Source: Candidatus Ozemobacteraceae bacterium (GTDB lineage: Bacteria; Muiribacteriota; Ozemobacteria; Ozemobacterales; Ozemobacteraceae). From it: a stretch of DNA of 64,000 bases. The stretch lies in contig OZ223236.1 of NCBI GenBank assembly GCA_965140445.1, positions 2,562,010-2,626,009 on the forward strand, read 5' to 3'. Below are positions 2,057 through 15,121 of the stretch, in pieces; the first letter of the stretch is position 1, and every line of letters begins with the position of its first letter. The notes under the pieces are model-generated. The model did not search any database. It saw only the letters and a program-made list of their open reading frames with translations, and was not told the origin of the DNA. Both the position numbers and the translations under genes were made by a program.

Positions 2057-3082
2057 ATGATAGTTCCGACAACTGCGCAAACAGGGAAAAACAGCAAGGT
2101 TTTCATGTCAATAAATGATGGTATTGCTGTTTCAAATTTTCCGCTTTCTTTACAAGCAACATACGAGCTAAACGGTGAGACACTCACAAATCAAATGTAT
2201 TTGCTCGGAGAGACAAAAATGATCAACGACAGACCTGCTATAAGCACGTCTGTTACTGTGAATGGAGTGATTGACGGCATAGATATAATGCCAACTTCTA
2301 ACGCTGACGAAATAGCGACGACAGCGGGAACAATTCAAGTGAACGGGCAGCCTGTAGCTGTTGCAGCTAGTTTAGTTTCAATAACTCGTGCTGCTACAGA
2401 CGAAGCAGCATGGGTGGTGCTTTGTGTTTCAAACAGTGGCACAGTATCAGCAATTAAAGGTACTGATACAACAAGCTCAGCTGGAAAAGCTGGACTAGTA
2501 GCAAGTTTTGGCACTGGAGCCGGTGAAATTCCGTTTATTTCAGTTGATAGCGTGTTATTAGCTGTTCTCAAGCTCGACGATGTATCAGCTGTTATTTCGT
2601 ATTCTGAAATAGATCAATCTTATAGAGAATATAGCGCTATTTCATTTTATTTATATCCGTCAATCGGCGCTGTCAAAGTTTCTACAAGTCTACTGAAATG
2701 CCACACCGGCGAAGTTGCTAGAACGCCGCTGTTTAGCGGCAAATACATTGACGACAGTCTACTAGCTGAGATTGGAGACGCGAAAAGCTGGAGTTTAACG
2801 CCGAACTCTACGACTGTAGCAGTTGAAACGCTGGCAGGCGGAAAGTCTCAAACAACTATTAGCAGCTGGAGCTTTGCATTTAATCAGCTTTTCACGAACG
2901 GACTAGCGTTAGCAGCAATTATGAAGCGCCAGGGCTACGCATGCGTCAAAATGCAGCTTAGCAGCGGCGAGTATTTCAGATTTTCAGGATCGCTGGCAGG
3001 CGGAATTAAAGCAGATCCAGGCTCTTATGTTGAGCAAGATATATCTGGCAGCTGCGACACGCCATACTACAGCGGACAATAA
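2057..3082 (+). CDS. putative major tail protein
   Basis: 341-aa ORF with AGGAG SD, immediately upstream of chaperone/frameshift gene and tape measure gene (conserved siphovirus order); followed by a hairpin + T-run. Assignment by synteny only. Confidence 0.5.
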   Translation: MIVPTTAQTGKNSKVFMSINDGIAVSNFPLSLQATYELNGETLTNQMYLLGETKMINDRPAISTSVTVNGVIDGIDIMPTSNADEIATTAGTIQVNGQPVAVAASLVSITRAATDEAAWVVLCVSNSGTVSAIKGTDTTSSAGKAGLVASFGTGAGEIPFISVDSVLLAVLKLDDVSAVISYSEIDQSYREYSAISFYLYPSIGAVKVSTSLLKCHTGEVARTPLFSGKYIDDSLLAEIGDAKSWSLTPNSTTVAVETLAGGKSQTTISSWSFAFNQLFTNGLALAAIMKRQGYACVKMQLSSGEYFRFSGSLAGGIKADPGSYVEQDISGSCDTPYYSGQ

Positions 3083-3089
3083 GCAACAC

Positions 3090-3111
3090 AGGGGGCTGTT
3101 TGTCCCCTTTT
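3090..3111 (+). terminator. candidate intrinsic terminator after major tail gene
   Basis: 7-bp stem AGGGGGC/GTCCCCT (one G-U) with loop tgttt followed by TTTT. Confidence 0.4.
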
Positions 3112-3148
3112 AAACTTTTCTTAGAAATATCAGGAGGCAAAAAAAATC

Positions 3149-3529
3149 ATGGCTAGAAAAATTAAAAAAACAGCTAAAACACTTGTAGCACTATCAGCTG
3201 ACGACATTTTAAAACGCTGCAAACGAAAAACAAAAACAGTAGAAGTACCAGCACTTGGAGAAGATTTTGCAGTTAGCATTTTAGCACCGAATCCGCATGA
3301 ACTCTACGAGCTACGATCTGAAGCGCAAGAACAAAATTTAAACGACAAAGATTTTATTGAAAACTTATTTAAAAAATCTCTGAACGGCTGGACTGATGAG
3401 CAGTTAGAAGAGCTGAAAGAGCTAGACGGTTTTAAGTATGACAGAATCTTAGCGGCTTGTATTCCGCATCTAATGCCATTTGCGGCGGCTTTATCAGCTG
3501 AAAATATGGAGAAGCAAAAAAAAAGCTAG
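3149..3529 (+). CDS. tail assembly chaperone (gpG-like short form)
   Basis: 126-aa acidic ORF with AGGAGG SD directly upstream of tape measure gene; ends in the slippery run A_AAA_AAA (3517-3523) just before its TAG. Confidence 0.6.
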   Translation: MARKIKKTAKTLVALSADDILKRCKRKTKTVEVPALGEDFAVSILAPNPHELYELRSEAQEQNLNDKDFIENLFKKSLNGWTDEQLEELKELDGFKYDRILAACIPHLMPFAAALSAENMEKQKKS

Positions 3530-3666
3530 CTACAAATCCGGATCTTAGAGCAATTGTAGCTACTGCAATAAACGAGAGCATCAGTATTAACAGTGTTATT
3601 GAAAGAGGAGCTGATGATTTAGCGCTGAGAATAGCACTACGAAAACTAGAAAACGAAACATCTTAA
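3517..3666 (+). other. -1 programmed frameshift site (A_AAA_AAA at 3517-3523) and -1 frame extension to TAA 3664-3666 (gpGT-like long form)
   Basis: I translated the -1 frame from 3523 by hand: KLATNPDLRAIVATAINESISINSVIERGADDLALRIALRKLENETS, no stop until 3664-3666, ending 20 bp before the tape measure start. Confidence 0.55.
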
Positions 3667-3685
3667 AGAAAGGACTAGAGCGACA

Positions 3686-5254
3686 ATGGCAAGCAGCAAT
3701 ATAAATATAAAGCTCAAAGCTATAGATGAGTATAGCGGCGTCTTGACCGGGCTAAACCAGGGTTTAGAGCTCGTTGGCAAAGGATTTAATTTTATTAAAG
3801 CAACAGCCAGCGTTGCCTGGGACGCGATAAGCTACGGCACTAAAGCCGCTCTGGATCTAGCTAAAGTTGGTGGAGCTTTTCAAGAACAGCGTAATCAGTT
3901 TGAAAACCTGGCGAAGAGTTACAAAGTGAATGGTCAATCTATTATTGATACTGTTAAAGGTACTGCTCTAAACACTATTACAGAGTTTGATAGCATCAGC
4001 ATAGCTACAAAAGCTCTAGCAGCTGGTTTAAAAGGCAAAGATTTAGAGGACTCTCTAAGCTATGTGAAACGCTGGACAGAAGCTACAGGTCAAGATTTTC
4101 GCGCTGTTTCAGAAAGTGTTTTTACAAGCTTAGCAAGCGGACGTTTTAGCATTTTAAGGCAAATGGGTCTAGTAATTGAAAATGGAGCAAAACTAAATCA
4201 AGTTGTTGCTGCAATGAGCGCCGGTTTAAAAAAATTTGGTGATTCAGGCTTCAACGCAGGCGACAAACTCGCAAGTATGGCAGCTAGTCAAGACGATTTC
4301 TGGAGAAAAATTGGACAAGGAGTCAACTCGTCAAAAGAATTTCAGGACGTTTTAACTAGACTCTCTGACAATGCACTAGCTTTCGTGAAAAATTTTGATC
4401 CATTGCCCGTAACTTTGTTTGTAGACGAAGTTATAAGCGGAGCAAAAAACATTTATAACATTTTTAAAGAAACTTTTCCGGGTGTCTCAAAACTGCTCGA
4501 CACAATGTTTGTTAATCCGATTGAGGGCGTTAAAGATTTCGCTAAAGTCGGAGTTGACTCTTTCTATGCAATTTATAGAACAGCTGCTGATGTTACAAAC
4601 AGCATTTTAGAAACATTTAAAACACTAAACAGCGGAAATGTTCTGTCAGATTTAGCAAGCGGAACAATTCAACTATTAAGTTTCATCGGCTCTGCAATTT
4701 CACAACTAATAGAATCTGCTGTTGACTTGGCAGCTGATGCAATAGCACGAATTTTAAATAATCTCGGTGATTTCTTGAAACAGAGCCCAAAAATCAGCGA
4801 GTGGCTGGGCATTGACGCTAGTGTTTTTGATTTTTCAGGCTCAGCAAATCAGCTCAAAACATCAGTAGCAGCAATGACGGGCGCTTTTAAACTTGGTTTT
4901 GATGATTTGTCAAAACGATCTGATGCACTATTTAGCAATCTAAACGGCGGTTTTGATGACATGAAATCAGATTTGAGCGAAATAGACAAAGCGCATGTCA
5001 AAACGTTGTCTAGTCTCGACAGCATGAGCAAAAGCTATTCAAAAGCAAACAACGAAGCTGAAAAAATGGCAGAAACAATTAAAAATGTACCTAGCTATTC
5101 AAAAATAAAAGTTGAGCTAGCTGACGGCTCTGTTAAAGAGATTGAGGACGGATTGAAATATATTAAAGCGCCGCTTGTAAATCTTAAAGCTGAACTTGAT
5201 TTGAACGAACTCAAAGACATTGACAAAAAAAATCAGAAGCAAGATCACTACTGA
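3686..5254 (+). CDS. tail tape measure protein
   Basis: 522-aa ORF, Ala/Leu/Lys-rich helical composition, placed directly after the chaperone/frameshift pair; SD AAAGAAAGGA upstream. Confidence 0.6.
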   Translation: MASSNINIKLKAIDEYSGVLTGLNQGLELVGKGFNFIKATASVAWDAISYGTKAALDLAKVGGAFQEQRNQFENLAKSYKVNGQSIIDTVKGTALNTITEFDSISIATKALAAGLKGKDLEDSLSYVKRWTEATGQDFRAVSESVFTSLASGRFSILRQMGLVIENGAKLNQVVAAMSAGLKKFGDSGFNAGDKLASMAASQDDFWRKIGQGVNSSKEFQDVLTRLSDNALAFVKNFDPLPVTLFVDEVISGAKNIYNIFKETFPGVSKLLDTMFVNPIEGVKDFAKVGVDSFYAIYRTAADVTNSILETFKTLNSGNVLSDLASGTIQLLSFIGSAISQLIESAVDLAADAIARILNNLGDFLKQSPKISEWLGIDASVFDFSGSANQLKTSVAAMTGAFKLGFDDLSKRSDALFSNLNGGFDDMKSDLSEIDKAHVKTLSSLDSMSKSYSKANNEAEKMAETIKNVPSYSKIKVELADGSVKEIEDGLKYIKAPLVNLKAELDLNELKDIDKKNQKQDHY

Positions 5255-5411
5255 TGTCAAAGTCAATCTTGATTCAAACAAGCTTGACGCTAAAAAATCT
5301 GAAGAAGGCTTAACAGCTCAACAAGTTTTAGATGCACTAACTAAACTCGTAATGGACTATGCAGCCTCTATAGCTTCTAGTTCCGGCTTTCCAGCTGTTG
5401 TGAGCGCATAA
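5220..5411 (+). CDS. possible C-terminal continuation of tape measure protein in +1 frame (or separate small ORF)
   Basis: Frame opens at 5205 and overlaps the tape measure 3' end; an A8 homopolymer (5225-5232) lies in the overlap, and removing one A fuses the two frames. Confidence 0.3.
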   Translation: MTKKIRSKITTDVKVNLDSNKLDAKKSEEGLTAQQVLDALTKLVMDYAASIASSSGFPAVVSA

Positions 5412-5427
5412 AAAAGGATTTTTAATA

Positions 5428-5805
5428 ATGATTCAAATTAAACCGACGACCAGTTGCTTGTTAAATCATCAAGAGTTTAGTTTAACTCTTCCAGGTTCAT
5501 TGTCTTTCAATGTTCCCAGGGCTAGTAAATCAGTAAGAACGCTGGACGGCGGAGTTGCAATAACTCTTTGGAAGAAAAACAAAGCTGGAGCGATAACAGA
5601 AAAAAGTTTTTTGTTAAATCAAAGTCAATACAAAATCTTAGAGCAAATTATATATCACGAAACAGTTTTTGAGTGGTTGGTTTTCAGTGGTGAGAGCAGG
5701 TTTTTATGTTCATTAGATTTTACAAAAGATGAACAAATAACATTCGACAATAATCCTGATTTTAAAAATGTTTCAGTGCAATTTTTTGTTATACAGGAGC
5801 TTTAA
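5428..5805 (+). CDS. hypothetical phage tail protein
   Basis: 125-aa ORF with AAGGAT SD, first gene after tape measure. Confidence 0.5.
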   Translation: MIQIKPTTSCLLNHQEFSLTLPGSLSFNVPRASKSVRTLDGGVAITLWKKNKAGAITEKSFLLNQSQYKILEQIIYHETVFEWLVFSGESRFLCSLDFTKDEQITFDNNPDFKNVSVQFFVIQEL

Positions 5806-5807
5806 AA

Positions 5808-6935
5808 ATGATTCAAGGCGGAACAAGCGCGGCTGGTAGAGCAGCTAGAACCGGGTATACACAGTATTACATACCCTGTTTGCTTTTCGCGTCTTCTAAA
5901 TCTGTCTTAGAAAAAATGCAGAATACAAAGCGCGTATCTGTTTATAACGCGTATGTAAAGATTGAAGATTTTGACGGCGGTTTGCAGCTTTTGAACAGTT
6001 GCAGCTATTTTCAAATTCAGAAATATGCTGGAGCCGGAATTGACAACGCTACTCTAACAATTCAAAGAGCGGAAATATGGGGGATTTGGCAAGATACATA
6101 CAAAAACTTGTTAAAGCCGTCAAAGCGCTCTGTGACCATCTTTGCTGGAATTCCGGGAAAAGAAGAACAAGTTTTTTGTGGTCGAATAACCGGCTATCAA
6201 GAGAGCCAGGGCAGCGGCGGTGGGGCTATAAATCTGAATTTAAGTGATCATCGTTTGACTGTTCAGAGAACTACTACTACTCAAAAATACACTGAGCACA
6301 CTAGATTTTATGAAATTTCAAGAATTGCTGACGAAATTTTTAAAAATGCTGGTCAAGTTTTGCAAATAGCAGACACAGACACAGTATCAACGTGGACGCC
6401 AACTGGCAACGGGCTAGAGTCAGCAAATCAAGCGCTTTCAGGAGAACCGGAATGGACTGGAGGCGCTCTAGTAACTATAAATTCAGGCAATGTTTTAACA
6501 GTAACGAGTGATGATTTATTAATAATAAATGATTCTCTGATCAGTAATGCTTCAAGAAATTTTCACGATTCAAGCGCTTTTAACACTGTTAATGTGAAAG
6601 GTTTAGTCGATGATGTTCTGACTACTGATATTGTTCAAGATGAAACAGACGCAAAAGATCGCGGAATAATAACATATAGCGCAATCGTCGGATCTGAGCA
6701 CGATAATATAGAGCAAGCAAAATTACAAGCCCAGAGGCTCATAGCACGAGCATTGAGCGGCGTTTTCAGATGTAATACTGTTTATTTGCCGTATTTGGAA
6801 CCAGGGCAAATCGTAAAAATACAGAGTAATCGTTTTAACATTGCTCTATCGACTGCAAAAATAACTAGTGTTATGCAGCAATATCAAGTCGGAAATTGTA
6901 GCACGAGCATTAGCGGACTGGAGCTATTAGAATGA
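5808..6935 (+). CDS. hypothetical phage tail/baseplate protein
   Basis: 375-aa ORF, CAGGAGC SD, 2-bp gap from upstream gene. Confidence 0.55.
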   Translation: MIQGGTSAAGRAARTGYTQYYIPCLLFASSKSVLEKMQNTKRVSVYNAYVKIEDFDGGLQLLNSCSYFQIQKYAGAGIDNATLTIQRAEIWGIWQDTYKNLLKPSKRSVTIFAGIPGKEEQVFCGRITGYQESQGSGGGAINLNLSDHRLTVQRTTTTQKYTEHTRFYEISRIADEIFKNAGQVLQIADTDTVSTWTPTGNGLESANQALSGEPEWTGGALVTINSGNVLTVTSDDLLIINDSLISNASRNFHDSSAFNTVNVKGLVDDVLTTDIVQDETDAKDRGIITYSAIVGSEHDNIEQAKLQAQRLIARALSGVFRCNTVYLPYLEPGQIVKIQSNRFNIALSTAKITSVMQQYQVGNCSTSISGLELLE

Positions 6936-7900
6936 TACTGCACGCTATTATAACAGCTATAGACGTACCAGAAAAAGGCTGGTATCAAGCTCTAACGAAT
7001 TTCGGCACAACTGTCAATGCAGTTCGACTGAAAGGTACTGATAAAAAGTTTGCTAACGGGCAAATAGTTAGTGTTATTCAAAACGGCTCAGAGTTTGGTT
7101 TGACAGAGTTTGGCAAAACATCAGTGTTAAAAATTCCGGCTCTTTTGCGTAGCGGTTTAGCAGAACAATACAAAGCTGATACAGTTTTAGCATATATTGC
7201 AACGCTAGCAAACAATGTTAAAAAACTCTATCACGTCGCAAAAGTTGAAAATGTTGCTTTAGACGCTCTAACTGTTTTGAATGAATTTACAAAACAGGTG
7301 CAATTGTTGAGTTGCAGCGAAGTTAGTGCGCTAGATTTTAAAATTAATGACAGAGTTTTAATAGAAATCGGAAAACCGTCAAAAATAATAGGTTGGTGGA
7401 ACTGTGTCCCAGCAGCTGTTGACACAGGTTATGCAATAATAGCTATTGGTCGCAGAGCATACAGTCCTGATGTTTTTATACACAAAATCAGTTTTAAAGA
7501 CGGTGAATACAGCGTCAGCAATGAAATTCGATTTGAAATGAATAATAGAGCTCTGACGTATGCAAACATTTTTACTCTAAAGAGCTTAGACGCTGACGAG
7601 TATTTCTATTCAAGAGTAATAGCAACCGGAGCGCTAGACGTGCCAGCAGAGCTCCACTGGCTAAAATGGCGCAAGAATTTGACGAGCGTTGAAGAAATTA
7701 CAGAATCAGAATATCTAGCAAAAGAAGCTATACAGCCAGTCTACACTATGACAACTGATAACAAAATTTGGTGGACTTCAGACAATTGCTATATATCAGA
7801 CACAGAAACAAGCTCTAAAACTCTTGTTTTCCCGTCTGGCGAGCCTTTCCAGGAGCAGTTTTTTCCGATTCAAGGCAAAATTTACAAGGAGTTTATTTAG
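6932..7900 (+). CDS. hypothetical phage tail/baseplate protein
   Basis: 322-aa ORF, ATGA overlap with previous gene (translational coupling). Confidence 0.55.
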   Translation: MILHAIITAIDVPEKGWYQALTNFGTTVNAVRLKGTDKKFANGQIVSVIQNGSEFGLTEFGKTSVLKIPALLRSGLAEQYKADTVLAYIATLANNVKKLYHVAKVENVALDALTVLNEFTKQVQLLSCSEVSALDFKINDRVLIEIGKPSKIIGWWNCVPAAVDTGYAIIAIGRRAYSPDVFIHKISFKDGEYSVSNEIRFEMNNRALTYANIFTLKSLDADEYFYSRVIATGALDVPAELHWLKWRKNLTSVEEITESEYLAKEAIQPVYTMTTDNKIWWTSDNCYISDTETSSKTLVFPSGEPFQEQFFPIQGKIYKEFI

Positions 7901-8313
7901 TGAGCAGTTCTGTACCATTCAAAATTAGTATTAATCCTGATCCTGCTTTGATAATTTTTGCCGGGAAAAAGACAGACTCTGTTAATTTCGAAATTACTAA
8001 CGCAGATACTAGAAATATAACTAGTCTGCTCATTAGAGCTGTTAGAGCTGATTTGATGCCGCTGGGACTGATAAATAACGAAAATAGAGAAACAAAACTA
8101 GCAGCCGGGGAGTCAATTGTTTTTAATCAGCGACTCGAAGCAAGAGCAACAGATTTTGACGAGTGGACAAGCTGCAATGACTGGAGCAGCGGTTTAGACC
8201 TGGGCGAATTTTCTCCAGGTCAAAGCAAAACTTTTCAAATCAGATTAAATCTACTCGACGAGCAAGAGACAGAGCTAAAACAGGGCTTTTCGATCATGCT
8301 CGCAATAATCTAA
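7900..8313 (+). CDS. hypothetical phage protein (GTG start)
   Basis: 137-aa ORF, GTG start with AAGGAG 8 nt upstream. Confidence 0.5.
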   Translation: MSSSVPFKISINPDPALIIFAGKKTDSVNFEITNADTRNITSLLIRAVRADLMPLGLINNENRETKLAAGESIVFNQRLEARATDFDEWTSCNDWSSGLDLGEFSPGQSKTFQIRLNLLDEQETELKQGFSIMLAII

Positions 8314-8326
8314 GGAGGCGCTGAAA

Positions 8327-8674
8327 ATGGCAGATACAACAAATTTAGACGCGATTATAGACGCTGGAGTCAGCGCTATAGCAACAGTTGAGCTGTGGAC
8401 TGAAATCCGCGATTTACTGAAAGCAGTTTCAGGTGAAACAGGCTCTGTAACGCTAGCTGGCAGAAATACAGGCGTTGAAGTTAGTTTGACGACAACGTTT
8501 GATGCTACTACAGACTATGATGTTTTCTTTTATATCGAGAAAGCTGCTGCTGCAAAGACAGGCAGCATAGGTGAAGTGACTATTACAAAAAATTCAGGTA
8601 GTGCGTTTACTGTGAAAAATTCAGGATCTGACTCACTATCTACTCTGAATTACAAAGTTATGAAGAGAGCTTAA
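8327..8674 (+). CDS. hypothetical phage protein
   Basis: 115-aa ORF, AAGGAGG SD. Confidence 0.5.
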   Translation: MADTTNLDAIIDAGVSAIATVELWTEIRDLLKAVSGETGSVTLAGRNTGVEVSLTTTFDATTDYDVFFYIEKAAAAKTGSIGEVTITKNSGSAFTVKNSGSDSLSTLNYKVMKRA

Positions 8675-8676
8675 CT

Positions 8677-9471
8677 ATGAAAAAACTATTATTAATAATA
8701 CTTATAATGCTTTCTAGCAGATGTTTTGCAATAGACAACAACATTGTTTTTGTGAACCACTTTGACGGTTTAGTTAGTAATCAAGACTTTACTTGTGATT
8801 ACATGCCCTTTTATACGTTCTATGCAACTCAAAATGCAAACAATGCAGGTATACCGCGCCTTGACGGAGCTGGCAAATGGGGACAGAGCTATAATGCAGG
8901 TCAAAGCAGTAGATACTCGTATTGCTATAATTATACAGACTTTAACGTCAACACAGTGCTTGAAAATGACTTCACTATCGACTTTTGGCTATATCTTACA
9001 AGCGCTGACGCTGGAATTGACACAGGCTATGTTTTAAGAGCTGGCAGCTTTTCAACTTATGTATTGATGCAAGACTACACAGTAAAAATGAGCTTTACTG
9101 ACGGCTCAGGCAGTGGCTACGTAAACTATCAAGTTGATGATTTTATTCACTACGCGTTTGTGCGAAGCGGAAACACTTTAAAAGCGTATAGAAACGGAAT
9201 TTTGCAAGCTACTAGCGCAACAACTGCACCGGCTTTGAATATTTCAAACATCAGATTGGGGCGCGAGTTCATAAGCGGCGATGCTTTCACAAATGTAAAT
9301 TTTTTAATGGACGAACTGAGAGTTAGCAGAAAAGCAGAATGGTTAGAAAATTTCACGCCTCCAGCTGCTCCTTATTCTTACGCGCCGATTTATGCAAACA
9401 TCAGACTTGGAACAAGCGGAGAAATAAAACTAGGCTCAGATGGGCTGATAAAGCTGGATTGGAGGCAATAA
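8677..9471 (+). CDS. secreted LamG/concanavalin A-like lectin domain protein (tail fibre-associated)
   Basis: 264 aa; N-terminus MKKLLLIILIMLSSRCFA looks like a cleavable signal peptide; body resembles a LamG-type jelly-roll (FTIDFWLYL...YAFVRSGNTLKAYRNG...IRLGRE). Domain call by eye. Confidence 0.5.
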   Translation: MKKLLLIILIMLSSRCFAIDNNIVFVNHFDGLVSNQDFTCDYMPFYTFYATQNANNAGIPRLDGAGKWGQSYNAGQSSRYSYCYNYTDFNVNTVLENDFTIDFWLYLTSADAGIDTGYVLRAGSFSTYVLMQDYTVKMSFTDGSGSGYVNYQVDDFIHYAFVRSGNTLKAYRNGILQATSATTAPALNISNIRLGREFISGDAFTNVNFLMDELRVSRKAEWLENFTPPAAPYSYAPIYANIRLGTSGEIKLGSDGLIKLDWRQ

Positions 9472-9473
9472 AA

Positions 9474-10967
9474 ATGAATGAATCTCCTGAAAATATTTTT
9501 CTTACTGAAGACGATATAGAAAAAACTAGCACTAGTCTTGTTATTGCTGACAATAAAATTGTTGTAAACGGCATTGACGGCGGCTTCTATGATGATTTTT
9601 CGAGCGGAGACTTGAGCAGATATATTAGTTCTAACGCTGTGATAGAGGGCGGCAATGTTAGATTTACAGATAGCACAAGTAACATAGTTTATAACAACTA
9701 TATTGTTTCAGATATTATTCCGATCACTGGTACTCAATACTACGGAATTCAAGCGGGAGTTTACGAAGTCAAAGCAAGACGAATTGCTATTGATACTGTA
9801 AATAATAACTATTTATATTTTACAACTGATTTGATGACGCCGGTGCGCTATAACAACTCCAGCGGTTTTTATATGTATTACACAAAAGATGTTGTTTATA
9901 TATACGCTTTCGGCGGAAGCACTACAGCTAGTTTTCAGTATACTACTGCTCAAATTCCGATCGGCGCTGAAATAACATTTAGAATAGTTGACGAGTCTCC
10001 GCTCGGCAGCTCGTTACAGAATGCTACTAGAATGTATTTTAAAATTAACAACGAAGAATGGATAAACACAGGAATCGGCGGAATAAATAGAGGCTACGTC
10101 GGTTTCGGCTTGTTATATGCTTACTCTAGCGTCAACAGTTTTGAATTTTTGAACTTCGCAATTTATGGCTATCCTGAAAAAATCACTCTAACGCTCAATA
10201 AAACTAGCTCTCTAGTAGCTGATTTACCAGCTAAGCTTAAAACACTTGATTCTATTTCTTTAACAACAGAAGACAGCAAACAAGGTTCTATAGCTCTATC
10301 GTTGCAGAAAAAAGACGCAAGACTAGCAGAATGGTCGGATCTAGACGACAAAATAGCTGAGTTTTCGACTGTTGCTGACGTGAAAAATGGCGGCTCTTTT
10401 ATTGCTCCAGTTCAAGAGCCAGCTCCGGAGCGTGAATTTATCATCAAGCTTGAATATTCAAACGGCGGAGTCAGCGGCTATAACACTATTAATTTGCCGC
10501 TGCAAATAAGCTGGACAAGCGATATTGAAGCGCCGCTCAGTCCGTCAGCTAGCGAAGTTAACCAATTTGGAGAAGCTGGCGCAGTTTTAAAAGCTGCTGA
10601 TGCTTTGTTAGAAGATGTTTACGGCGCACAAATAGAAGTAGATATTAACAATAACGGCTATTTGCCGCTTTCTGAGCGCAGCATACTAGAAACTGACAAC
10701 AACCATTTAATTTTGCGTTCAACGACTGGCGAGAAACAGCGAGCAGGTGAGCACAACAGCTTAGTCTATGCGCTCACAGGGCTAAATATTGACGACACTA
10801 TACGAATTAGATCGCGTTTTGTTGACGAAGTTGGCAACGCGTCAGCATTCAAAAATTCAGGATTAATAACTATAAAAGGCACTCTCTACGCTCAAGTGCC
10901 AGTAAAAAATTTCAAAACAAGCTGGAAAACAGCAACAAAATGGGGGGCGAAATGGACAACAAGCTAA
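9474..10967 (+). CDS. tail fibre-like protein
   Basis: ORF-track ORF starts at 9339 but the in-frame ATG at 9474 has GGAGG 9 nt upstream and follows the previous stop; 497 aa, Asn/Thr/Ser/Gly-rich beta-type composition. Confidence 0.5.
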   Translation: MNESPENIFLTEDDIEKTSTSLVIADNKIVVNGIDGGFYDDFSSGDLSRYISSNAVIEGGNVRFTDSTSNIVYNNYIVSDIIPITGTQYYGIQAGVYEVKARRIAIDTVNNNYLYFTTDLMTPVRYNNSSGFYMYYTKDVVYIYAFGGSTTASFQYTTAQIPIGAEITFRIVDESPLGSSLQNATRMYFKINNEEWINTGIGGINRGYVGFGLLYAYSSVNSFEFLNFAIYGYPEKITLTLNKTSSLVADLPAKLKTLDSISLTTEDSKQGSIALSLQKKDARLAEWSDLDDKIAEFSTVADVKNGGSFIAPVQEPAPEREFIIKLEYSNGGVSGYNTINLPLQISWTSDIEAPLSPSASEVNQFGEAGAVLKAADALLEDVYGAQIEVDINNNGYLPLSERSILETDNNHLILRSTTGEKQRAGEHNSLVYALTGLNIDDTIRIRSRFVDEVGNASAFKNSGLITIKGTLYAQVPVKNFKTSWKTATKWGAKWTTS

Positions 10968-11269
10968 TAGTCGGTGAGTCACACGATCCAATTTTAGAAC
11001 TAACTGACGAAAATAACGAAATAATGGATCTAGAAGGCGCAAGCGTAAAGTATGGCATGAAAAAAAACAAAAATAGTGCGTATGCTCACGCGTCTATGCC
11101 AATTTCTGGTACTGCGAGCCTGGGTCAAGCTTCAGTAGAAGTTTCAGCAGCAGTAACAGCTGAAATAGAGCTCGGGCGCTATATAGAAGAATTTGAAATA
11201 ACATTAGCAAACGGAAAAACAAAGAAATTTCAGCGCTCAATATCTGTCGAATGGGCTGTCAATACATAA
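10940..11269 (+). CDS. hypothetical phage protein
   Basis: 109-aa ORF overlapping the 3' end of the upstream gene; alternative ATG at 10952. Confidence 0.45.
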   Translation: MGGEMDNKLIVGESHDPILELTDENNEIMDLEGASVKYGMKKNKNSAYAHASMPISGTASLGQASVEVSAAVTAEIELGRYIEEFEITLANGKTKKFQRSISVEWAVNT

Positions 11270-11281
11270 AAGGAGACAAAC

Positions 11282-13048
11282 ATGAAAAAATTTTTATTAT
11301 TAATAATGATACTGATAACTAGTATAGCTAGTGCTCAGAGCTATGATTCAGCAGAAGATATAGGGCTAAGTCCTTATGATGTTGCTGAATATATGCTCAG
11401 AAACGGCAATATAGCAAGTGGTACTACAGCTCCAACAGTTACAGCTGGTATACCTGACGGTGCGCTATATTGGCAGACACAGCCTAGCATTGTGTTGTGG
11501 GTTAAGCTCGATGGAAGCTGGGAGCCTGGAGCCGGGGCAGTTGATCCGATCGCTATTCATTTAGCTGAGCTCGGAGAGAAGAGCTACAACAGTCTCGACG
11601 ATAAACCGCTTATTCCTGAAAATTTGGCTGATTTGACAGAAAAGAGCTATAACACACTAACAGACAAGCCAACATCTGCCAGCTGGAATTTAGCAGAGCT
11701 TAACGAAAAAAGTTTTGCAAGTTTAGCAAGTAAACCAACGACTTTAAACGGCTACGGCATTATAGACGGAGTGCTAGACTCAGTTTTCAGCTCTCATGTT
11801 TCAGAGTTTAACTCTCACGTTAATACAGTTGTTGACGCGCATTCAGCCAATCAGAGAATATCACAAACTCTGACGATCGGCGCAGATAACGACTCGAATG
11901 CGTTTTTGGGCTACGCAGGAGCTGGCACAGTAGCAGTCGGTGATTATTTAATGGTACCTTATACTGCTACAGCTCCGACGACTATAAATAGCGGCTCAGC
12001 GCTGTTTTGGTGCGACTCAAACACGAATCAAGTAAAAATATACAACGGAAAAACAGGAGAGTGGCTGATTATCGGCAGCATTTATAGTGTTGACGCAGAT
12101 TTTGGTATTAAAAATGAGTCATATCTAAATTTATATTCAAACGATAATGTAGGAGAAAACATCAGAGCTAGACTAAGATGTATTGGAAGCGCGACGGGCA
12201 GCGGATATGGCGGAGATTTTGTATTAGAAACTAGAAATGGATCGAATGTTTGGAATTCTAACGCGTTTACTCTGAAAGAAAATGGAAACATTTTAATAAA
12301 TACAGCAACAGACGACAGCTACTACAAACTACAGCTCGCAGGAAATGCAAAATTTTATTCAACTTCGGGCGGTTCAATTGGTGAAGATGATCCGGCTGTT
12401 GCTAATCTTTTTACTAATACACCGAATGGCGGCGGTGGCTTATTCAATGTTTTGCAATTGCATCTTGATAGAGCAGCAAACAACGACGGAGCAGCTTTAA
12501 CGTTTGCAGCTAACGATGCAGGAGGCAGCAGGCGCACTCTAGCGCTAATTGGTGCAGCTCCCAGTGACACAACAGACGGATCGCCAGACGGTTACATGGT
12601 TTTTTACACTTGCGCAGGCACTATGCTAGAGAGAATGAGGCTGACTAAAAGCGGTAATCTTTTAATAAATACAGCAACAGACGATGGAATTAACAAACTA
12701 CAAGTTAATGGAAGCGTTAAATTTGACGCTGGTTCATCAGTTTGTCGATTCAAAGAAATAACTTTAGCTGACAATCAAACACTTGATTTAAGAAGTTTTT
12801 TCGGAAATGCAAACTATATGTTCGGAAATTTAAAAATAGTTGCTATTGAAAATTCAGGCAGTGCGGCTGATGTTTTTTTGACTGGATCATATAATACTGT
12901 AAATTTGTATTCAGTTGCTGGCTCAGTCGTGAACACTTCAACAGACGGCTATATTTGCGTATATCCAGCCGGAAGCGGTGAATACACTCTCGAAAACAAG
13001 CTCGGTACTTCGACTGTAATCTCACTATTTTATCAGGGGATACAATAA
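11282..13048 (+). CDS. tail fibre-like repeat protein with N-terminal signal peptide
   Basis: 588 aa; AAAGGAGA SD; N-terminus MKKFLLLIMILITSIASA-QS; three tandem ~20-aa repeats (LAELGEKSYNSLDDKP-like, aa 94-152) and a duplicated ~30-aa module (NILINTATDD..KLQ..G..KF). Confidence 0.55.
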   Translation: MKKFLLLIMILITSIASAQSYDSAEDIGLSPYDVAEYMLRNGNIASGTTAPTVTAGIPDGALYWQTQPSIVLWVKLDGSWEPGAGAVDPIAIHLAELGEKSYNSLDDKPLIPENLADLTEKSYNTLTDKPTSASWNLAELNEKSFASLASKPTTLNGYGIIDGVLDSVFSSHVSEFNSHVNTVVDAHSANQRISQTLTIGADNDSNAFLGYAGAGTVAVGDYLMVPYTATAPTTINSGSALFWCDSNTNQVKIYNGKTGEWLIIGSIYSVDADFGIKNESYLNLYSNDNVGENIRARLRCIGSATGSGYGGDFVLETRNGSNVWNSNAFTLKENGNILINTATDDSYYKLQLAGNAKFYSTSGGSIGEDDPAVANLFTNTPNGGGGLFNVLQLHLDRAANNDGAALTFAANDAGGSRRTLALIGAAPSDTTDGSPDGYMVFYTCAGTMLERMRLTKSGNLLINTATDDGINKLQVNGSVKFDAGSSVCRFKEITLADNQTLDLRSFFGNANYMFGNLKIVAIENSGSAADVFLTGSYNTVNLYSVAGSVVNTSTDGYICVYPAGSGEYTLENKLGTSTVISLFYQGIQ

Positions 13049-13049
13049 C

Positions 13050-13526
13050 ATGAAGAAATCATTAATATTTTTACTAATAACAATTTCTATTTTGCTTGTG
13101 ACTGTTTCTGTATCAGCTCAAAACGCTAGCTATTCAGCTAGCTATGATATTGAGACTGTTGTTAATAATAAAGTTGAGCAAATCAAAATAAACTTTCTTG
13201 ATGCAGTATTGAGCACTATTTCTGTCTTTCTGTTGTTTGTAGTAGCTCAGATTAAAGCATATTTTGCTCAAGCAACGAAAGAAAAACAGCACAAGCGCGG
13301 CTCAAGCGTCGTCGAAGATAGTTTGTTTTCTGCAATTTTTGAAGCTGATAGCACGCTTGAAAAAGTTTTAGCAAGTAAAGCTGAGCGCGTTCGTGTATCT
13401 GTAATTTGGGCTTCTATAGCTAAGACAAGACTAAAAGAATTAGCAGGATTTAAAAAAGCGGACTTAAATAATTGGATTTCAACACAACAAACAATCATTT
13501 TGAGCAAAAAAGCTCAAGGAGTCTAA
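13050..13526 (+). CDS. membrane protein with signal peptide (lysis-associated or moron; function unknown)
   Basis: 158 aa; N-terminus MKKSLIFLLITISILLVTVSVSA-QN plus one further hydrophobic helix (VLSTISVFLLFVVAQIKAYFA). Confidence 0.45.
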   Translation: MKKSLIFLLITISILLVTVSVSAQNASYSASYDIETVVNNKVEQIKINFLDAVLSTISVFLLFVVAQIKAYFAQATKEKQHKRGSSVVEDSLFSAIFEADSTLEKVLASKAERVRVSVIWASIAKTRLKELAGFKKADLNNWISTQQTIILSKKAQGV

Positions 13527-13630
13527 AAAATGAGATACCATATTTCGCCCGATTTATTATTTGTATATTTAGTTCTTGTGATTTTGTGCTTTCATGTTGC
13601 TGTTCCAGTGTTTTTCAGGAGCGTGAAATT

Positions 13631-14191
13631 ATGGCTAAGCTAGTGAGAATGAACGAAAACGACAAAAATTGTGGTTTAGTTGCTATGCAAATAGCGAGCA
13701 AGCTCGACTATGAAAAAATAAAAAATTCCTGGGCGGGCGGCTGGCTATCAGATAGCACAGACAAAGGAGCGGTTGGAGTACCTAACGACACTCCGCTAGA
13801 TCACTTTTCAACGCTCGAAAAACTCAAGTTAAAATTTAGAATTGTAACATGCAATGAAATCTTGAACGGCTCTTGTAGAGCTAGAAAAACAGTAATTTTG
13901 TTGCACTTGTCGAGCAGTTCAAAAAAAACAATTTGGGAAAAAATAAAAAACTGGTTTAGAGCAACTCTAGCGCAGCATTGGTGCGTATTAGAGTCAGTAG
14001 ATATTAAAAATCAAGTTTTGACTGTAGATTGGCTCTACTCAGATCAGAAAACAAAAACATTTTCTTTTTCAGAGTTTGAACAGCTATACAGTGCTGGCAC
14101 GCCAGCATGTGCGTATGAAATCGGCAGCGGCAATTACAAGGTTAAATGGTATCAGAGATTACTAGCAAAAATTTCTGGAAAATGGATCTAG
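13631..14191 (+). CDS. putative papain-fold cysteine peptidase (C39/CHAP-like), possible second lytic enzyme
   Basis: ATG at 13631 with AGGAG 9 nt upstream (track ORF begins at 13472); candidate catalytic Cys in NENDKNCG, His in AQHWCVL, Asp in ESVD. Motif-level inference only. Confidence 0.4.
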   Translation: MAKLVRMNENDKNCGLVAMQIASKLDYEKIKNSWAGGWLSDSTDKGAVGVPNDTPLDHFSTLEKLKLKFRIVTCNEILNGSCRARKTVILLHLSSSSKKTIWEKIKNWFRATLAQHWCVLESVDIKNQVLTVDWLYSDQKTKTFSFSEFEQLYSAGTPACAYEIGSGNYKVKWYQRLLAKISGKWI

Positions 14192-14200
14192 GAGATTATT

Positions 14201-14500
14201 ATGAGCGACTTAGCAGATCTCAACGAAAAACGAATAGATAGACTAGAAAACAGTGTTATTGAAATGAAAAAAGAGCTGAAAGTAGCTATTAAAGAAGGGT
14301 TCAAAGAATGCAGAGAAATTGCTCCGCTGACTTGTCCAAACTCGAAAAAATTAAGCTTGTCTAGTGCAATTATGCTCTGTAGCGTGCTGTGCGGGGTGTT
14401 TTTATTTCTCGCAAAAATTGGAGTTTTAGAAAACATTTCAATAAAAAAACAAACTAAAACTAGTATTAGCAGTGACAGACAAGAAGGAGCTAATAAATGA
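14201..14500 (+). CDS. putative holin (single transmembrane helix)
   Basis: 99 aa, AGGAG SD, charged coiled N-terminus then TM helix LSLSSAIMLCSVLCGVFLFLAKIGVL; overlaps the amidase start by 4 bp. Confidence 0.4.
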   Translation: MSDLADLNEKRIDRLENSVIEMKKELKVAIKEGFKECREIAPLTCPNSKKLSLSSAIMLCSVLCGVFLFLAKIGVLENISIKKQTKTSISSDRQEGANK

Positions 14501-15021
14501 AAATAGCACTAGTCGTCGGACACTCTAAAAAAGCAAAAGGGGCTCGAAACAGAGCGTCAAAAATGACTGAATTTGACTATAATGACGAGCTCGTTAAAAA
14601 AATAGCTGTTATGCTCAATAAAAGGGGCATAGACAACGTAATTGTCTATCGAGATAGCTATAGTGCTCTACCGGGAAAAATTAACGCTAAGAAGCCCACT
14701 TTTATTTTGAGCTTTCACGCGAACAGTTGCAAAAATGATGCTGTGTCTGGCTCAGAAGTTCTTTACTACAAAGATAGTAAAAAAGGAAAATTGCTTGCTC
14801 AAGTTATGCTCAATGCAATTGTAAAGACTCTTGAACTTAGAAATAGAGGCATAAAGCCGCGCTCAGAGAGCGATCGTGGCGGATATTTGCTAAAAAATAC
14901 TCATGCAGCTTGTGTCATACTAGAGCCTTTTTTTATTAATAATAATGCTGATTGCGAGACAGCTACGAATAAACTCGACGAGCTCGCTGTATCTATAGCT
15001 CTAGCTATTGAAAATATATGA
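14497..15021 (+). CDS. N-acetylmuramoyl-L-alanine amidase (Amidase_3 family) endolysin
   Basis: 174 aa with family hallmarks ALVVGHS...SFHANS...EVLYY...ILEPFF; AGGAG SD; located at the end of the phage late operon. Confidence 0.85.
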   Translation: MKIALVVGHSKKAKGARNRASKMTEFDYNDELVKKIAVMLNKRGIDNVIVYRDSYSALPGKINAKKPTFILSFHANSCKNDAVSGSEVLYYKDSKKGKLLAQVMLNAIVKTLELRNRGIKPRSESDRGGYLLKNTHAACVILEPFFINNNADCETATNKLDELAVSIALAIENI

Positions 15022-15096
15022 AAAAATTGTAGTAGATGCAAAACTAGCTAAACATTGCATGCTATCAAAATAAAGTTTTTTTGCCTCCTCCCTTTA

Positions 15097-15121
15097 CTCC
15101 CAGAGCTCTGGGAGTTTTTTT
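15097..15121 (+). terminator. intrinsic terminator after endolysin
   Basis: Perfect 18-bp palindrome CTCCCAGAGCTCTGGGAG followed by TTTTTTT. Confidence 0.6.

What the first reader, a model, noticed from the sequence alone, without database searches (positions are those of the whole stretch)
8677..13526. Three genes in the tail-fibre module encode proteins with canonical cleavable signal peptides
The ORFs at 8677 (LamG-like), 11282 (tail fibre-like repeat protein) and 13050 all start with a basic n-region, a hydrophobic h-region and an AXA-type cleavage site. Virion structural proteins are assembled in the cytoplasm and normally lack Sec signals. These may therefore be secreted or surface-exposed proteins embedded in the tail module (morons, adhesins, depolymerase-like proteins, superinfection exclusion factors), or this phage has an unusual tail-fibre export route.
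Basis: partly seen in the sequence, partly recalled or inferred. Interest (0 to 1): 0.5.

Follow-up and report, generated by a model that had tools for sequence, protein, structure and literature searches.

The report
Signal peptides on phage tail-fibre proteins
A prophage in an uncultured Riflebacteria-type genome, and all its metagenomic relatives found here, put export signals on the fibre-like and lectin-like proteins at the far end of the tail gene cluster, so these proteins probably work outside the cytoplasm, where tail fibres are not normally made.

Summary
The ORFs at 8677, 11282 and 13050 start at Shine-Dalgarno-backed ATGs. Each encodes MKK, a hydrophobic core and a small -3/-1 site, like host exported proteins in the same window. 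None of the other 17 prophage ORFs does.

It is not chance and not a recent moron insertion. The host is a Riflebacteria-type diderm. Eleven related phage contigs (not all independent) share the tail module. In them, genes before a conserved 115-aa gene almost never carry such N-termini (1/61), while genes after it almost always do (31/33). In 11 fibre homologues the signal region varies freely but always ends before an invariant Gln that opens a conserved N-terminal domain.

The 588-aa protein is fibre-like in sequence and fold. Its closest solved structures are phage fibres and the exported Bdellovibrio MAT fibres, which have the same layout. The 158-aa protein is more likely a type-I membrane protein beside the lysis genes.

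Most likely this is a conserved, late-expressed, Sec-exported cassette acting in the cell envelope. Arming of virions after lysis is the main rival. No SignalP run or experiment was possible.

The parts
2057..8313 (+). Signal-peptide-less tail module: tail protein 2057-3082, tape-measure-like 3686-5254, 125-aa 5428-5805, tail protein 5808-6935, then 6932-7900 and 7900-8313.
   Evidence: phrog_1887 tail protein and phrog_30644. NCBIfam phage tail hit for 3686-5254. All are shared at 27-52% identity with relatives L085, L092, L093, L101 and L103. None has a signal-peptide-like N-terminus.
8327..8674 (+). Conserved 115-aa gene that marks the boundary. In this phage lineage, genes after it carry signal peptides.
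   Evidence: 44-50% identical in 12 related loci. Signal-peptide-like N-termini: 1/61 genes up to and including it versus 31/33 after it.
8677..9471 (+). LamG-like (concanavalin-type lectin fold) protein with a cleavable signal peptide.
   Evidence: PF13385 E 9e-13; phrog_3545 and virion/baseplate PHROGs. Homologues in L085, L083, L087, L092, L093, L097 and L101 are only 16-42% identical but all start with a signal peptide.
8677..8730 (+). Signal peptide of the LamG protein (aa 1-18, MKKLLLIILIMLSSRCFA, predicted cleavage before Ile19).
   Evidence: Nearly identical to the signal peptide in L085, (M)KKLLLIILICLSSSAFA, which starts at a TTG after AAAGGAG.
9474..11269 (+). Two genes without signal peptides (497 aa at 9474-10967; 109 aa at 10940-11269) inserted between the LamG and fibre genes. 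They are specific to this prophage.
   Evidence: No signal peptide. No homologue in any relative. phrog_1084 for the 109-aa protein. No similarity to the fibre.
11282..13048 (+). Tail-fibre-like protein with a cleavable signal peptide.
   Evidence: 475 HMMER hits at E<=1e-3, many of them phage fibres. AlphaFold model has pLDDT >80 for aa 280-360 and for most of 440-588. 117 BFVD phage fibre-like matches. PDB matches to Bdellovibrio MAT fibres and the T5 L-shaped fibre.
11282..11335 (+). Signal peptide of the fibre (aa 1-18, ...SIASA|Q).
   Evidence: AAGGAG 8 nt upstream. In 11 homologues the -1 residue is A/S/G/T, -3 is A/V/L and +1 is an invariant Gln.
11336..11557 (+). Conserved mature N-terminal domain of the fibre (aa 19-92, 'Q[ST]Y.LP..LS.YD[VI]A.W....G.IASGT...G.LY...P.LW...G.W'). 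Putative anchor or docking domain.
   Evidence: Shared by P0011-14, P0020, P0039, P0093, P0105, P0132 and P0152, all directly after a signal peptide. The AlphaFold model is unreliable here.
11561..11725 (+). Three 'LAELxEKS[YF]xSL..KP' fibre repeats (aa 94-148).
   Evidence: The same repeat occurs in phage fibre-like proteins P0005 and P0144 and in the signal-peptide-bearing homologues.
12647..13045 (+). C-terminal tip domain of the fibre (aa 456-588).
   Evidence: Homologous to the C-termini of P0021, P0023, P0028, P0035, P0056 and P0139, all of which carry signal peptides. In L087 and L102 this domain family belongs to a second, separate signal-peptide-bearing fibre. pLDDT is mostly 80-95.
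13050..13526 (+). 158-aa membrane protein: signal peptide or signal anchor (aa 1-23, nt 13050-13118), short external segment, transmembrane span (aa 47-68, nt 13188-13253), basic cytoplasmic C-terminal domain.
   Evidence: A homologue sits in L092 (154 aa, MKNLLLLLLLIPNALQA|TGE; 35% identity over aa 52-153) at the same place before the lysis genes. Weak phrog_301 'secreted protein' hit, E 0.009.
14201..15021 (+). Lysis genes at the end of the same gene string: a 99-aa single-TM holin-like protein (14201-14500) overlapping the Amidase_3 endolysin (14497-15021).
   Evidence: PF01520 E 4e-29 and phrog_435 endolysin. TM at aa 57-75. Both are conserved in L092. The first terminator-like hairpin lies only at 15096-15115.

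Best explanation
These are genuine Sec-type signal peptides on a conserved 'exported cassette' at the far end of the tail gene cluster. The prophage belongs to a previously undescribed siphophage-like lineage. Its host is a diderm of the candidate phylum Riflebacteria.

Proposed mechanism:
1. The cassette is transcribed late, on the same gene string as the tail and lysis genes.
2. The LamG lectin and the fibre are carried across the inner membrane by Sec.
3. Signal peptidase I cuts after CFA or ASA, in the fibre always before an invariant Gln.
4. The fibre folds and trimerises outside the cytoplasm. It is held by its conserved N-terminal domain to an envelope component or to the co-exported LamG protein. 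Its exchangeable C-terminal tip binds a strain-variable envelope glycan.
5. The 158-aa protein loses its signal peptide and stays in the inner membrane as a type-I protein, with its conserved domain in the cytoplasm, next to the holin and endolysin genes.

My committed reading is that the cassette works in the envelope of the producing cell and is not loaded onto tails in the cytoplasm. It would occupy or intercept the phage's own receptor glycans. This is the logic of T5 Llp (blocking superinfection and loss of progeny on debris), carried out with fibre proteins laid out like Bdellovibrio MAT fibres.

Shown here: the N-terminal features, their lineage-wide conservation, the fixed junction, the fibre fold, the synteny and the host phylum.
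Inferred: export itself, cleavage, late expression, trimerisation outside the cytoplasm, the binding partner and the purpose.
For: N-termini: all three fit the n/h/c rules and match host exported proteins in the window. The other 17 prophage ORFs do not. Starts are SD-backed and are the most upstream possible.

Host: PheT is 73% identical to Ca. Rifleibacterium amylolyticum. Riflebacteria are listed among diderm Terrabacteria with OmpM (10.1101/2021.05.31.446380).

Lineage-wide pattern: in 12 loci (not all independent), 1/61 genes up to the conserved 115-aa gene versus 31/33 genes after it have signal-peptide-like N-termini (Fisher p 2e-21). In the 38-kb viral contig L092, six consecutive genes carry them: LamG-like, fibre, a 192-aa protein, a 1284-aa fibre, a beta-propeller-like protein and the 154-aa homologue of 13050.

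Fixed junction: the signal regions vary in length and sequence but all end before an invariant Gln and a conserved mature domain. No conserved internal Met exists that could give a signal-less isoform.

Fibre nature: sequence and fold.

Closest exported analogue: Bdellovibrio MAT fibres, described as a signal peptide, an invariant N-terminal domain thought to bind a cell-surface element, a trimeric fibre and variable tips (PMC10769870).

Signal-less receptor-binding candidates exist in each genome, so virions need not depend on the exported set. These are the Big_2+LamG tip protein in L092 and the 497-aa insert in the window.

One transcription unit is suggested, because there is no promoter or terminator signal inside 8000-15021.
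Against: - No signal-peptide predictor, fusion assay or proteomics was run. Export and cleavage remain inferred.
- A Sec signal takes a protein only to the periplasm of a diderm. No outer-membrane sorting signal (lipobox in the window proteins, C-terminal beta-signal, PEP-CTERM, T9SS domain) was seen by eye in the C-termini.
- Position, tight coupling to tail genes, a conserved N-domain with variable tips, and mosaic exchange of tips between fibres are exactly what true virion fibres show.
- Superinfection-exclusion proteins are usually small and expressed early or from the prophage. This cassette is large (up to 1284 aa in L092) and looks late.
- The promoter scan uses a sigma-70 consensus that may not apply to this phylum.
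- Homology of the N-domain to the MAT N-domain could not be tested.
Confidence: 0.45

Rival explanations
1. Arming outside the cytoplasm. The exported proteins are the phage's real side fibres. They fold in the periplasm and dock onto finished, fibre-less tails only after the holin opens the inner membrane, inside the outer-membrane-bounded cell or in the lysate. Export would keep sticky fibres away from tails, or give them an oxidising, ion-rich folding compartment.
For: - The genes lie in the fibre position of the tail module and are tightly coupled to it.
- The fibre has the receptor-binding-protein hallmark of a conserved N-domain and a swappable tip.
- Fold matches are to phage fibres.
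- LamG PHROG hits are virion or baseplate proteins.
- In L092 every fibre-like gene after the tip genes carries a signal peptide, so no signal-less side fibre exists there.
- The conserved 115-aa protein or the LamG protein could be the docking partner.
Against: - My literature searches found no tailed phage that adds exported fibres after lysis.
- Docking after membrane rupture would be dilute and slow.
- Signal-less receptor-binding candidates exist in each genome.
- The block also holds non-fibre proteins, such as a beta-propeller and small proteins, that look periplasmic.
- Cys content does not suggest a need for periplasmic disulfide formation.
Confidence: 0.3
2. Ordinary cytoplasmic virion fibres. 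The hydrophobic N-termini would not act as export signals in vivo. They could serve as a transient membrane tether during tail-tip assembly, a trimerisation helix or a membrane-active segment used at infection.
For: - Tailed-phage virions assemble in the cytoplasm (established knowledge; PMC6199706 uses the absence of signal peptides as an argument for phage origin).
- The h-region of the 158-aa protein is 17-19 residues long, which is anchor-like.
- AlphaFold models the fibre N-terminus as a helix.
Against: - The full n/h/c pattern with -3/-1 small residues and an invariant +1 Gln is kept across 11 diverged fibres while the hydrophobic core drifts and changes length. That pattern is expected for signal peptidase substrates, not for a structural helix.
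- The h-regions of the LamG protein and the fibre are 9-13 residues, too short for a stable anchor.
- The same kind of N-terminus sits on non-homologous proteins of the block and is even shuffled between them.
- Classical fibres sharing the repeats lack it (P0002 in an SU10-like podophage).
Confidence: 0.12
3. Lysogenic-conversion or superinfection-exclusion genes expressed from the resting prophage. They would be surface adhesins or receptor blockers that benefit the lysogen, like lambda Lom/Bor, T5 Llp/Cor, or the streptococcal PblA/PblB tail proteins that double as adhesins.
For: - Exported proteins encoded next to fibre genes are known: Llp (PMC9586334).
- PblB is a prophage tail protein with a predicted signal peptide and adhesin activity (PMC4508584).
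- The space between tail and lysis genes is a usual cargo site.
- Some LamG homologues have a lipobox-like LSAC (L093, L104, L105).
Against: - No separate promoter or terminator was found.
- The genes are conserved and syntenic in all relatives found, not sporadic.
- GC composition matches the neighbours.
- There is no lipobox in the window proteins and no PADLOC hit.
- The size and number of the proteins are atypical for exclusion factors.
Confidence: 0.1
4. Artefact: wrong start codons or chance hydrophobic N-termini.
For: Gene calls here are mechanical. One relative had its LamG start miscalled by the source annotation.
Against: - SD sites sit at the right distance.
- The signal regions are conserved in many independent contigs.
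- The contrast is 1/61 versus 31/33.
Confidence: 0.03

Closest known systems
Bdellovibrio bacteriovorus MAT (mosaic adhesive trimer) fibres, e.g. Bd2133, Bd1334, Bd2439 (PMC10769870)
   Different: MAT genes are chromosomal genes of a predator and are displayed on its surface to bind prey. Here the genes sit inside a phage tail/lysis gene string in a Riflebacteria prophage and its metagenomic relatives. Homology of the N-terminal domains was not testable. The N-domain here is about 70 aa, against about 130 aa in MATs. No S74 chaperone domain was detected by Pfam.
Classical phage tail fibres (T5 L-shaped fibre pb1, cyanophage and SU10-like fibres)
   Same: Shared repeats and fold. Same position at the distal end of the tail module. 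Conserved N-terminus and variable tip.
   Different: Classical fibres have no signal peptide and are assembled in the cytoplasm. Among the 150 best sequence homologues, the long classical fibres lack the signal. The 28 that carry one are mostly the shorter proteins sharing this family's N- or C-domain.
Exported proteins encoded beside phage fibre genes: T5 Llp, Cor, lambda Lom/Bor
   Same: Phage-encoded, carry Sec-type signals, lie next to receptor-binding genes and act in the host envelope (Llp: PMC9586334; Cor, Lom and Bor from my own knowledge).
   Different: Those are small lipoproteins or outer-membrane barrels, unrelated to fibres, sporadic among related phages and expressed early or from the prophage. 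Here the proteins are large fibre and lectin proteins, conserved across the lineage and apparently late.
Streptococcal prophage tail proteins PblA/PblB acting as adhesins (PMC4508584)
   Same: Tail-fibre-like prophage proteins that end up on the bacterial surface. The pneumococcal PblB is predicted to carry a signal peptide.
   Different: The host is a monoderm. S. mitis PblB reaches the surface through phage lysis and re-binding, not through Sec (as summarised in PMC4508584). There is no detectable sequence relationship.
Sec- or SAR-exported endolysins (e.g. fOg44 Lys44; J5a-clade Wbeta-like phages, PMC8878798)
   Same: A precedent that late phage proteins can use the host Sec system and wait outside the membrane until the holin fires.
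   Different: Those are lysis enzymes, not fibre or lectin proteins. The endolysin here (14497-15021) has no signal peptide.

Membership tests
Sec-type signal peptide cleaved by signal peptidase I | Short, positively charged n-region | tested here: met
   MKK (+2, no acidic residue) in all three.
Sec-type signal peptide cleaved by signal peptidase I | Hydrophobic h-region of about 7-15 residues, shorter than a membrane span | tested here: met
   LamG about 11 residues and fibre about 13. The 158-aa protein has 17-19 residues, which is borderline, but its L092 homologue has a short Pro-containing h-region typical of cleaved signals.
Sec-type signal peptide cleaved by signal peptidase I | Small neutral residues at -3 and -1, conserved in homologues | tested here: met
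   CFA|I, ASA|Q and VSA|Q. In 11 fibre homologues -1 is A/S/G/T, -3 is A/V/L and +1 is an invariant Gln.
Sec-type signal peptide cleaved by signal peptidase I | Positive call by a trained predictor (SignalP, DeepTMHMM), or shown export and cleavage | not testable with these tools
   No predictor is installed and no experiment was possible.
Phage tail fibre (virion component) | Fibre-type repeats and fold | tested here: met
   HMMER hits to fibre-like proteins. 117 BFVD matches at E<=1e-3. T5 pb1 and tailspikes in the PDB.
Phage tail fibre (virion component) | Encoded in the tail morphogenesis module | tested here: met
   Lies downstream of the tape-measure and tip genes and upstream of the holin and endolysin. 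Syntenic in relatives.
Phage tail fibre (virion component) | Made and assembled in the cytoplasm (no export signal) | tested here: not met
   A conserved signal peptide is present.
Phage tail fibre (virion component) | Physically present in the virion | not testable with these tools
   Needs virion proteomics or cryo-EM.
Bdellovibrio MAT fibre family | Signal peptide directly followed by a conserved family-wide N-terminal domain | tested here: inconclusive
   The layout is present. However, no MAT N-domain sequence or structure was available to test homology, and the AlphaFold model has low confidence for aa 19-230.
Bdellovibrio MAT fibre family | Fibre shaft and tip structurally related to solved MAT C-terminal domains | tested here: met
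Bdellovibrio MAT fibre family | Chromosomal gene of the cell, with the product displayed on its own surface | tested here: not met
   Encoded inside a prophage tail/lysis string and in viral contigs. Surface display is untested.
Moron / lysogenic-conversion gene | Own promoter and terminator, sporadic presence among related phages, deviant composition | tested here: not met
   No promoter or terminator signal within 8000-15021 (the consensus may not fit this phylum). LamG and fibre genes are present in all relatives found. GC is like the neighbours.
Llp/Cor-type superinfection-exclusion lipoprotein | Small protein with a lipobox Cys at +1 | tested here: not met
   The window proteins have no lipobox. 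Only some LamG homologues have an LSAC-like motif.
Holin (class II), considered for 13050-13526 | Small protein with two membrane spans, a charged C-terminus and a position adjacent to the endolysin | tested here: inconclusive
   Two hydrophobic spans and a basic C-terminal region. However, the first span is a cleavable-looking signal in the L092 homologue. The protein is 158 aa long and lies two genes from the endolysin. A better holin candidate overlaps the endolysin start (14201-14500).
LamG / concanavalin-like lectin domain (PF13385) | Profile match above the Pfam gathering score | tested here: met
   49 bits against a cut-off of 27.6, aa 85-220. The single-sequence AlphaFold model failed (pLDDT 32).

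The most novel reading that the evidence does not exclude
This lineage of tailed phages completes its tails outside the cytoplasm. A whole set of fibres and lectins is exported by Sec, matures in the periplasm and is picked up by virions only when the holin breaches the membrane. That would be an extracytoplasmic step in tailed-phage morphogenesis. It would also give a plausible evolutionary bridge between phage fibres and cell-surface fibres such as the Bdellovibrio MATs.
Probability: 0.25. Interest if true: 0.9.

Novelty: new variant of a known kind. Interest (0 to 1): 0.62.

Why it matters
Tail fibres are regarded as cytoplasmic products, and the absence of signal peptides has even been used as an argument that a protein is of phage origin (PMC6199706). 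Here an uncultured phage lineage consistently does the opposite for its whole distal gene block.

If the proteins are exported and stay in the envelope, phages can use fibre-shaped proteins as envelope tools. That would also show how fibres could be domesticated into bacterial adhesins such as the MAT family.

If the proteins end up on virions, it would add a new step to tailed-phage assembly.

Either way there are practical consequences. Annotation pipelines that label any fibre-like gene in a tail module as a virion protein, or that discard signal-peptide proteins as 'cellular', would be misled. It is also a first look at phages of Riflebacteria.

Tried and rejected
- Source look-up: exact look-up of the window's own proteins found no record. 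The cluster tables only say NCBI/ENA, 5.2-Mb contig.
- Word-indexed protein searches: they found only the self hit for the LamG and 158-aa proteins and four weak hits for the fibre. The full HMMER scan was what opened the family.
- Cultured phage genomes: no DNA or protein match for the region, the fibre or the tail protein. There was one weak hit for the 341-aa tail protein. No cultured relative exists in that collection.
- Locus scans: the genome contigs and viral scans with the 375-aa tail protein found nothing. Alignment A2 was too variable to scan with. The 115-aa protein alignment worked.
- Structure: single-sequence AlphaFold of the LamG protein was useless (pLDDT 32). The afdb50 library was unavailable.
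- Pfam, NCBIfam and PADLOC gave nothing for the fibre or for the 158-, 188- and 497-aa proteins.
- Readings rejected: chance, wrong start codon, moron, Tat signal (no twin-arginine motif in the window proteins), lipoprotein (no lipobox in the window proteins), spanin (no lipoprotein/TM pair), and decoy paralogy. No similarity was found between the fibre and the 497-aa protein, or between the L092 tip protein and its exported LamG protein.
- Cys counts do not separate exported from cytoplasmic tail proteins.
- The cleavage positions printed by my script are simply the first permissible sites and should be ignored. The junctions quoted in this report come from the alignment.


Full report
**What is in the window**

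Positions 1 to about 15,400 are the right arm of a prophage on the + strand. In order it holds:
- a head decoration gene at 154-504 (PF09956)
- tail genes, including a tape-measure-like gene at 3686-5254 and a phrog_1887 tail protein at 5808-6935
- the three flagged genes
- a holin-like gene at 14201-14500, overlapping an Amidase_3 endolysin at 14497-15021

Terminator-like hairpins appear only after the endolysin, at 15096 and 15383. A RadC C-terminal fragment at 15667-15837 marks the probable junction with host DNA. From 15829 onward the genes are cellular: udk, transketolase, a diguanylate cyclase, MscK and pheST.

The host PheT is 73% identical to that of Candidatus Rifleibacterium amylolyticum, and the next-best hits are other Riflebacteria MAGs. 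Riflebacteria are counted among the diderm Terrabacteria with OmpM outer-membrane tethers (10.1101/2021.05.31.446380). A Sec signal would therefore deliver a protein to the periplasmic side of the inner membrane.

**Checking the observation**

Their N-termini are:
- 8677: MKKLLLIILIMLSSRCFA|IDNN
- 11282: MKKFLLLIMILITSIASA|QSYD
- 13050: MKKSLIFLLITISILLVTVSVSA|QNAS

Each ATG is the most upstream start of its ORF and follows an SD-like site. The clearest is AAGGAG, 8 nt before 11282.

I applied one rule set to 51 ORFs of the window. Only these three of the 20 prophage ORFs show a basic n-region plus a strongly hydrophobic core at the extreme N-terminus. Host envelope proteins show the same pattern and even the same endings...PAFA|QN in MscK...VFA|DG and ...SFA|QG.

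The 158-aa protein also has a second hydrophobic span (aa 47-68) followed by KAYFAQATKEKQHKRG. That is positive-inside, so it is a membrane protein.

No trained predictor was available. The strength of the case comes from homologues.

**Homologues**

Word-indexed searches found almost nothing, and cultured phage genomes hold no relative.

A full HMMER scan with the fibre gave 475 hits at E<=1e-3. Hits that align from residue 2-7 of the query all begin with a signal peptide, followed by the same mature N-terminal domain (P0011-14, P0020, P0042, P0070, P0132 and others). Hits to the C-terminal 130 residues also begin with signal peptides (P0021, P0023, P0028, P0035, P0056, P0139).

Of the 150 best hits, 28 are signal-peptide-like. 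The long classical fibres that share only the repeats are not. One of these, P0002, is the fibre of an SU10-like podophage.

In an alignment of 11 N-termini the signal region has indels and little identity. The residue after it is Gln in all 11, -1 is A/S/G/T and -3 is A/V/L. The mature domain 'Q[ST]Y.LP..LS.YD[VI]A.W....G.IASGT' is conserved. This is the signature of a cleaved signal peptide rather than of a structural helix. No conserved internal Met could provide a signal-less isoform.

**Genomic context of the homologues**

The contigs carrying these homologues are syntenic with the window. The shared order is: tape measure, a 125-aa gene, a 375-379-aa tail protein, a 322-506-aa protein, an Ig-like (Big_2) protein and a 113-117-aa protein. 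After that come a LamG-like protein with a signal peptide, a fibre with a signal peptide, a small signal-peptide protein and often a second signal-peptide fibre.

I used the conserved 115-aa protein as a probe and recovered further relatives from viral and metagenome collections, with GC 0.40-0.52. The loci are not all independent: L085 and L092, and L101-L103, share near-identical genes.

tblastn of all window phage proteins against these loci showed four things:
- The tail module, the LamG protein, the fibre, the 158-aa protein, the holin-like protein and the endolysin are all shared.
- The two signal-less genes at 9474-11269 are unique to this prophage.
- In the 38-kb viral contig L092, six consecutive genes after the 116-aa gene carry signal peptides: LamG-like, a 403-aa fibre, a 192-aa protein, a 1284-aa fibre, a 504-aa beta-propeller-like protein and the 154-aa homologue of 13050. 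A TM protein, the holin-like gene and the endolysin follow.
- Counting over 12 loci, 1 of 61 genes up to the 115-aa gene versus 31 of 33 genes after it are signal-peptide-like (Fisher p 2e-21).

LamG homologues are only 16-42% identical, yet all keep the signal. Signal sequences are even shuffled between unrelated genes...ILICLSSSAFA occurs on a LamG protein in L085 and on the propeller protein in L092.

Signal-bearing fibre-like proteins also occur in unrelated elements: a Mu-like prophage (L108) and a 74-kb phage-like contig (L109).

**What the proteins are**

The 264-aa protein is a LamG/concanavalin-type lectin domain (PF13385, 49 bits). Its PHROG matches are to virion and baseplate proteins.

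The 588-aa protein consists of:
- a signal peptide (aa 1-18)
- the conserved N-domain (aa 19-92)
- three 'LAELxEKSYxSL..KP' repeats (aa 94-148)
- a beta-rich shaft with two 'GNxLINTATDD..KLQ..G' motifs
- a tip domain (aa 456-588)

An AlphaFold model built with 107 sequences is confident for aa 280-360 and for most of 440-588.
- Foldseek against BFVD gives 117 matches at E<=1e-3. Nearly all are phage proteins, and the named ones are fibre, tailspike or virion proteins.
- Against the PDB the best matches are the Bdellovibrio MAT fibres Bd2133, Bd1334 and Bd2439, then the T5 L-shaped fibre.

The MAT paper describes 21 exported, surface-located, phage-fibre-like proteins. [quoted passage not shown] That is the same layout as here.

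The 158-aa protein keeps its TM span and C-terminal domain in L092. The N-terminal signal there is short and contains Pro. It is therefore most simply a type-I membrane protein with a cytoplasmic domain, placed just before the lysis genes, rather than a two-span holin.

**How it most likely works**

I consider it about 85% likely that the signals are functional, so the proteins leave the cytoplasm. What they do there is inference.

I favour an envelope function in the producing cell (0.45).
- The cassette would be made late with the tail and lysis proteins and exported by Sec.
- The fibre would be anchored by its conserved N-domain and would bind a variable envelope glycan through its tip.
- This would mask or intercept the phage's receptor. 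It is the logic of T5 Llp (PMC9586334), carried out with MAT-like fibres.

Reasons for this choice:
- Every genome keeps signal-less receptor-binding candidates. These are a Big_2+LamG tip protein in the relatives and the 497-aa insert in the window.
- The block includes non-fibre periplasm-like proteins.
- A membrane protein is part of the block.

The main rival (0.30) is that these are the real side fibres, added to tails after the holin opens the membrane. The gene position, the tight coupling, the conserved N-domain with mosaic tips, and the absence of any signal-less side fibre in L092 all fit that reading.

The other rivals, with their weights:
- Ordinary cytoplasmic fibres with a non-export hydrophobic N-terminus: 0.12
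- Prophage-expressed conversion or exclusion genes: 0.10
- Artefact: 0.03

**Comparison with what is known, and novelty**

Several things are already known:
- exported phage proteins beside fibre genes (Llp; also Cor, Lom and Bor)
- exported endolysins (PMC8878798)
- prophage tail proteins that double as adhesins (PblB; PMC4508584)
- exported fibre-like cell proteins (MAT)

In five literature searches I found no description of a conserved block of Sec-signal-bearing fibre and lectin genes inside a tail module. One paper treats the lack of signal peptides as typical of phage proteins (PMC6199706).

I therefore rate this as a new variant of a known kind. It sits in a phage lineage with no cultured member, from a candidate phylum whose phages I did not find described in the searches run here. 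Interest is moderate to high: the pattern is robust and surprising, but its meaning rests on experiments that cannot be done from sequence.

Noticed in passing
window 15667-15837 (+): A 56-aa ORF is the C-terminal third of a RadC-like JAB domain (PF04002, E 3e-19, profile positions 69-121 of 121). It lies right after the prophage lysis genes and two terminator-like hairpins (15096-15115, 15383-15402). It is probably a truncated radC at the prophage-host junction (attR). The left prophage end is outside the window.
   Followed up: partly
window 9474-11269 (+): Two genes without signal peptides (497 aa; 109 aa, phrog_1084) lie between the LamG and fibre genes. They have no homologue in any related phage contig. 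This is a prophage-specific insert and a candidate signal-less receptor-binding protein.
   Followed up: partly
window 13625-14191 (+): A 188-aa protein with an 'NDKNCGLVAMQIA' motif, reminiscent of a Cys-peptidase active site (from memory, untested). It has no significant family hit and no homologue in relatives. L092 has a 129-aa TM protein at this position.
   Followed up: no
window 14201-15021 (+): The lysis cassette is a 99-aa protein (coiled-coil N-terminus plus one TM span) overlapping an Amidase_3 endolysin. No spanin pair (lipoprotein plus TM protein) is recognisable, although the host phylum is diderm. How the outer membrane is breached is open.
   Followed up: partly
L092 17164-18678; L085 9172-9999; window 8677-8730: Almost the same signal peptide (…LLIILICLSSSAFA / …ILLAILICLSSSAFA / …LLIILIMLSSRCFA) sits on non-homologous proteins: LamG proteins and a beta-propeller-like protein. 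This suggests that signal-coding segments are exchanged within the cassette.
   Followed up: no
L093 10327-11208; L104 1024-1278; L105 670-2244: In higher-GC relatives the LamG-position protein starts MRRLLIILLMLSACACNGQ. This contains a lipobox-like LSAC, so some family members may be lipoproteins rather than soluble periplasmic proteins.
   Followed up: no
L108 10001-11815; L109 10001-14014: Signal-bearing fibre-like proteins also occur in unrelated elements. One is a 604-aa protein in the tail region of a Mu-like prophage, two genes after a probable tape-measure gene (1.9-Mb contig, GC 0.36). The other is a 1337-aa protein in a 74-kb phage-like contig (GC 0.59) that has several other signal-bearing genes. 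The phenomenon may be wider than this lineage.
   Followed up: partly
L081 8001-9062: P0004, a 353-aa protein, has an N-terminal membrane or signal segment and the same 'GNVLIGTATDDG.NKLQV.G' fibre motifs. It is a chromosomal gene between gyrB and gyrA in a metagenomic contig. This is a cellular, non-phage use of the fibre repeat.
   Followed up: no
window 45116-46257 (+): Two adjacent host ORFs have hydrophobic N-terminal segments resembling prepilin-type leaders; the second, at 45631-46257, begins MISKKRGMTLVEVMIGCLL. They are possibly pseudopilins of a type II secretion or type IV pilus system, next to large unannotated envelope proteins (42661-45198, 46942-48765).
   Followed up: no
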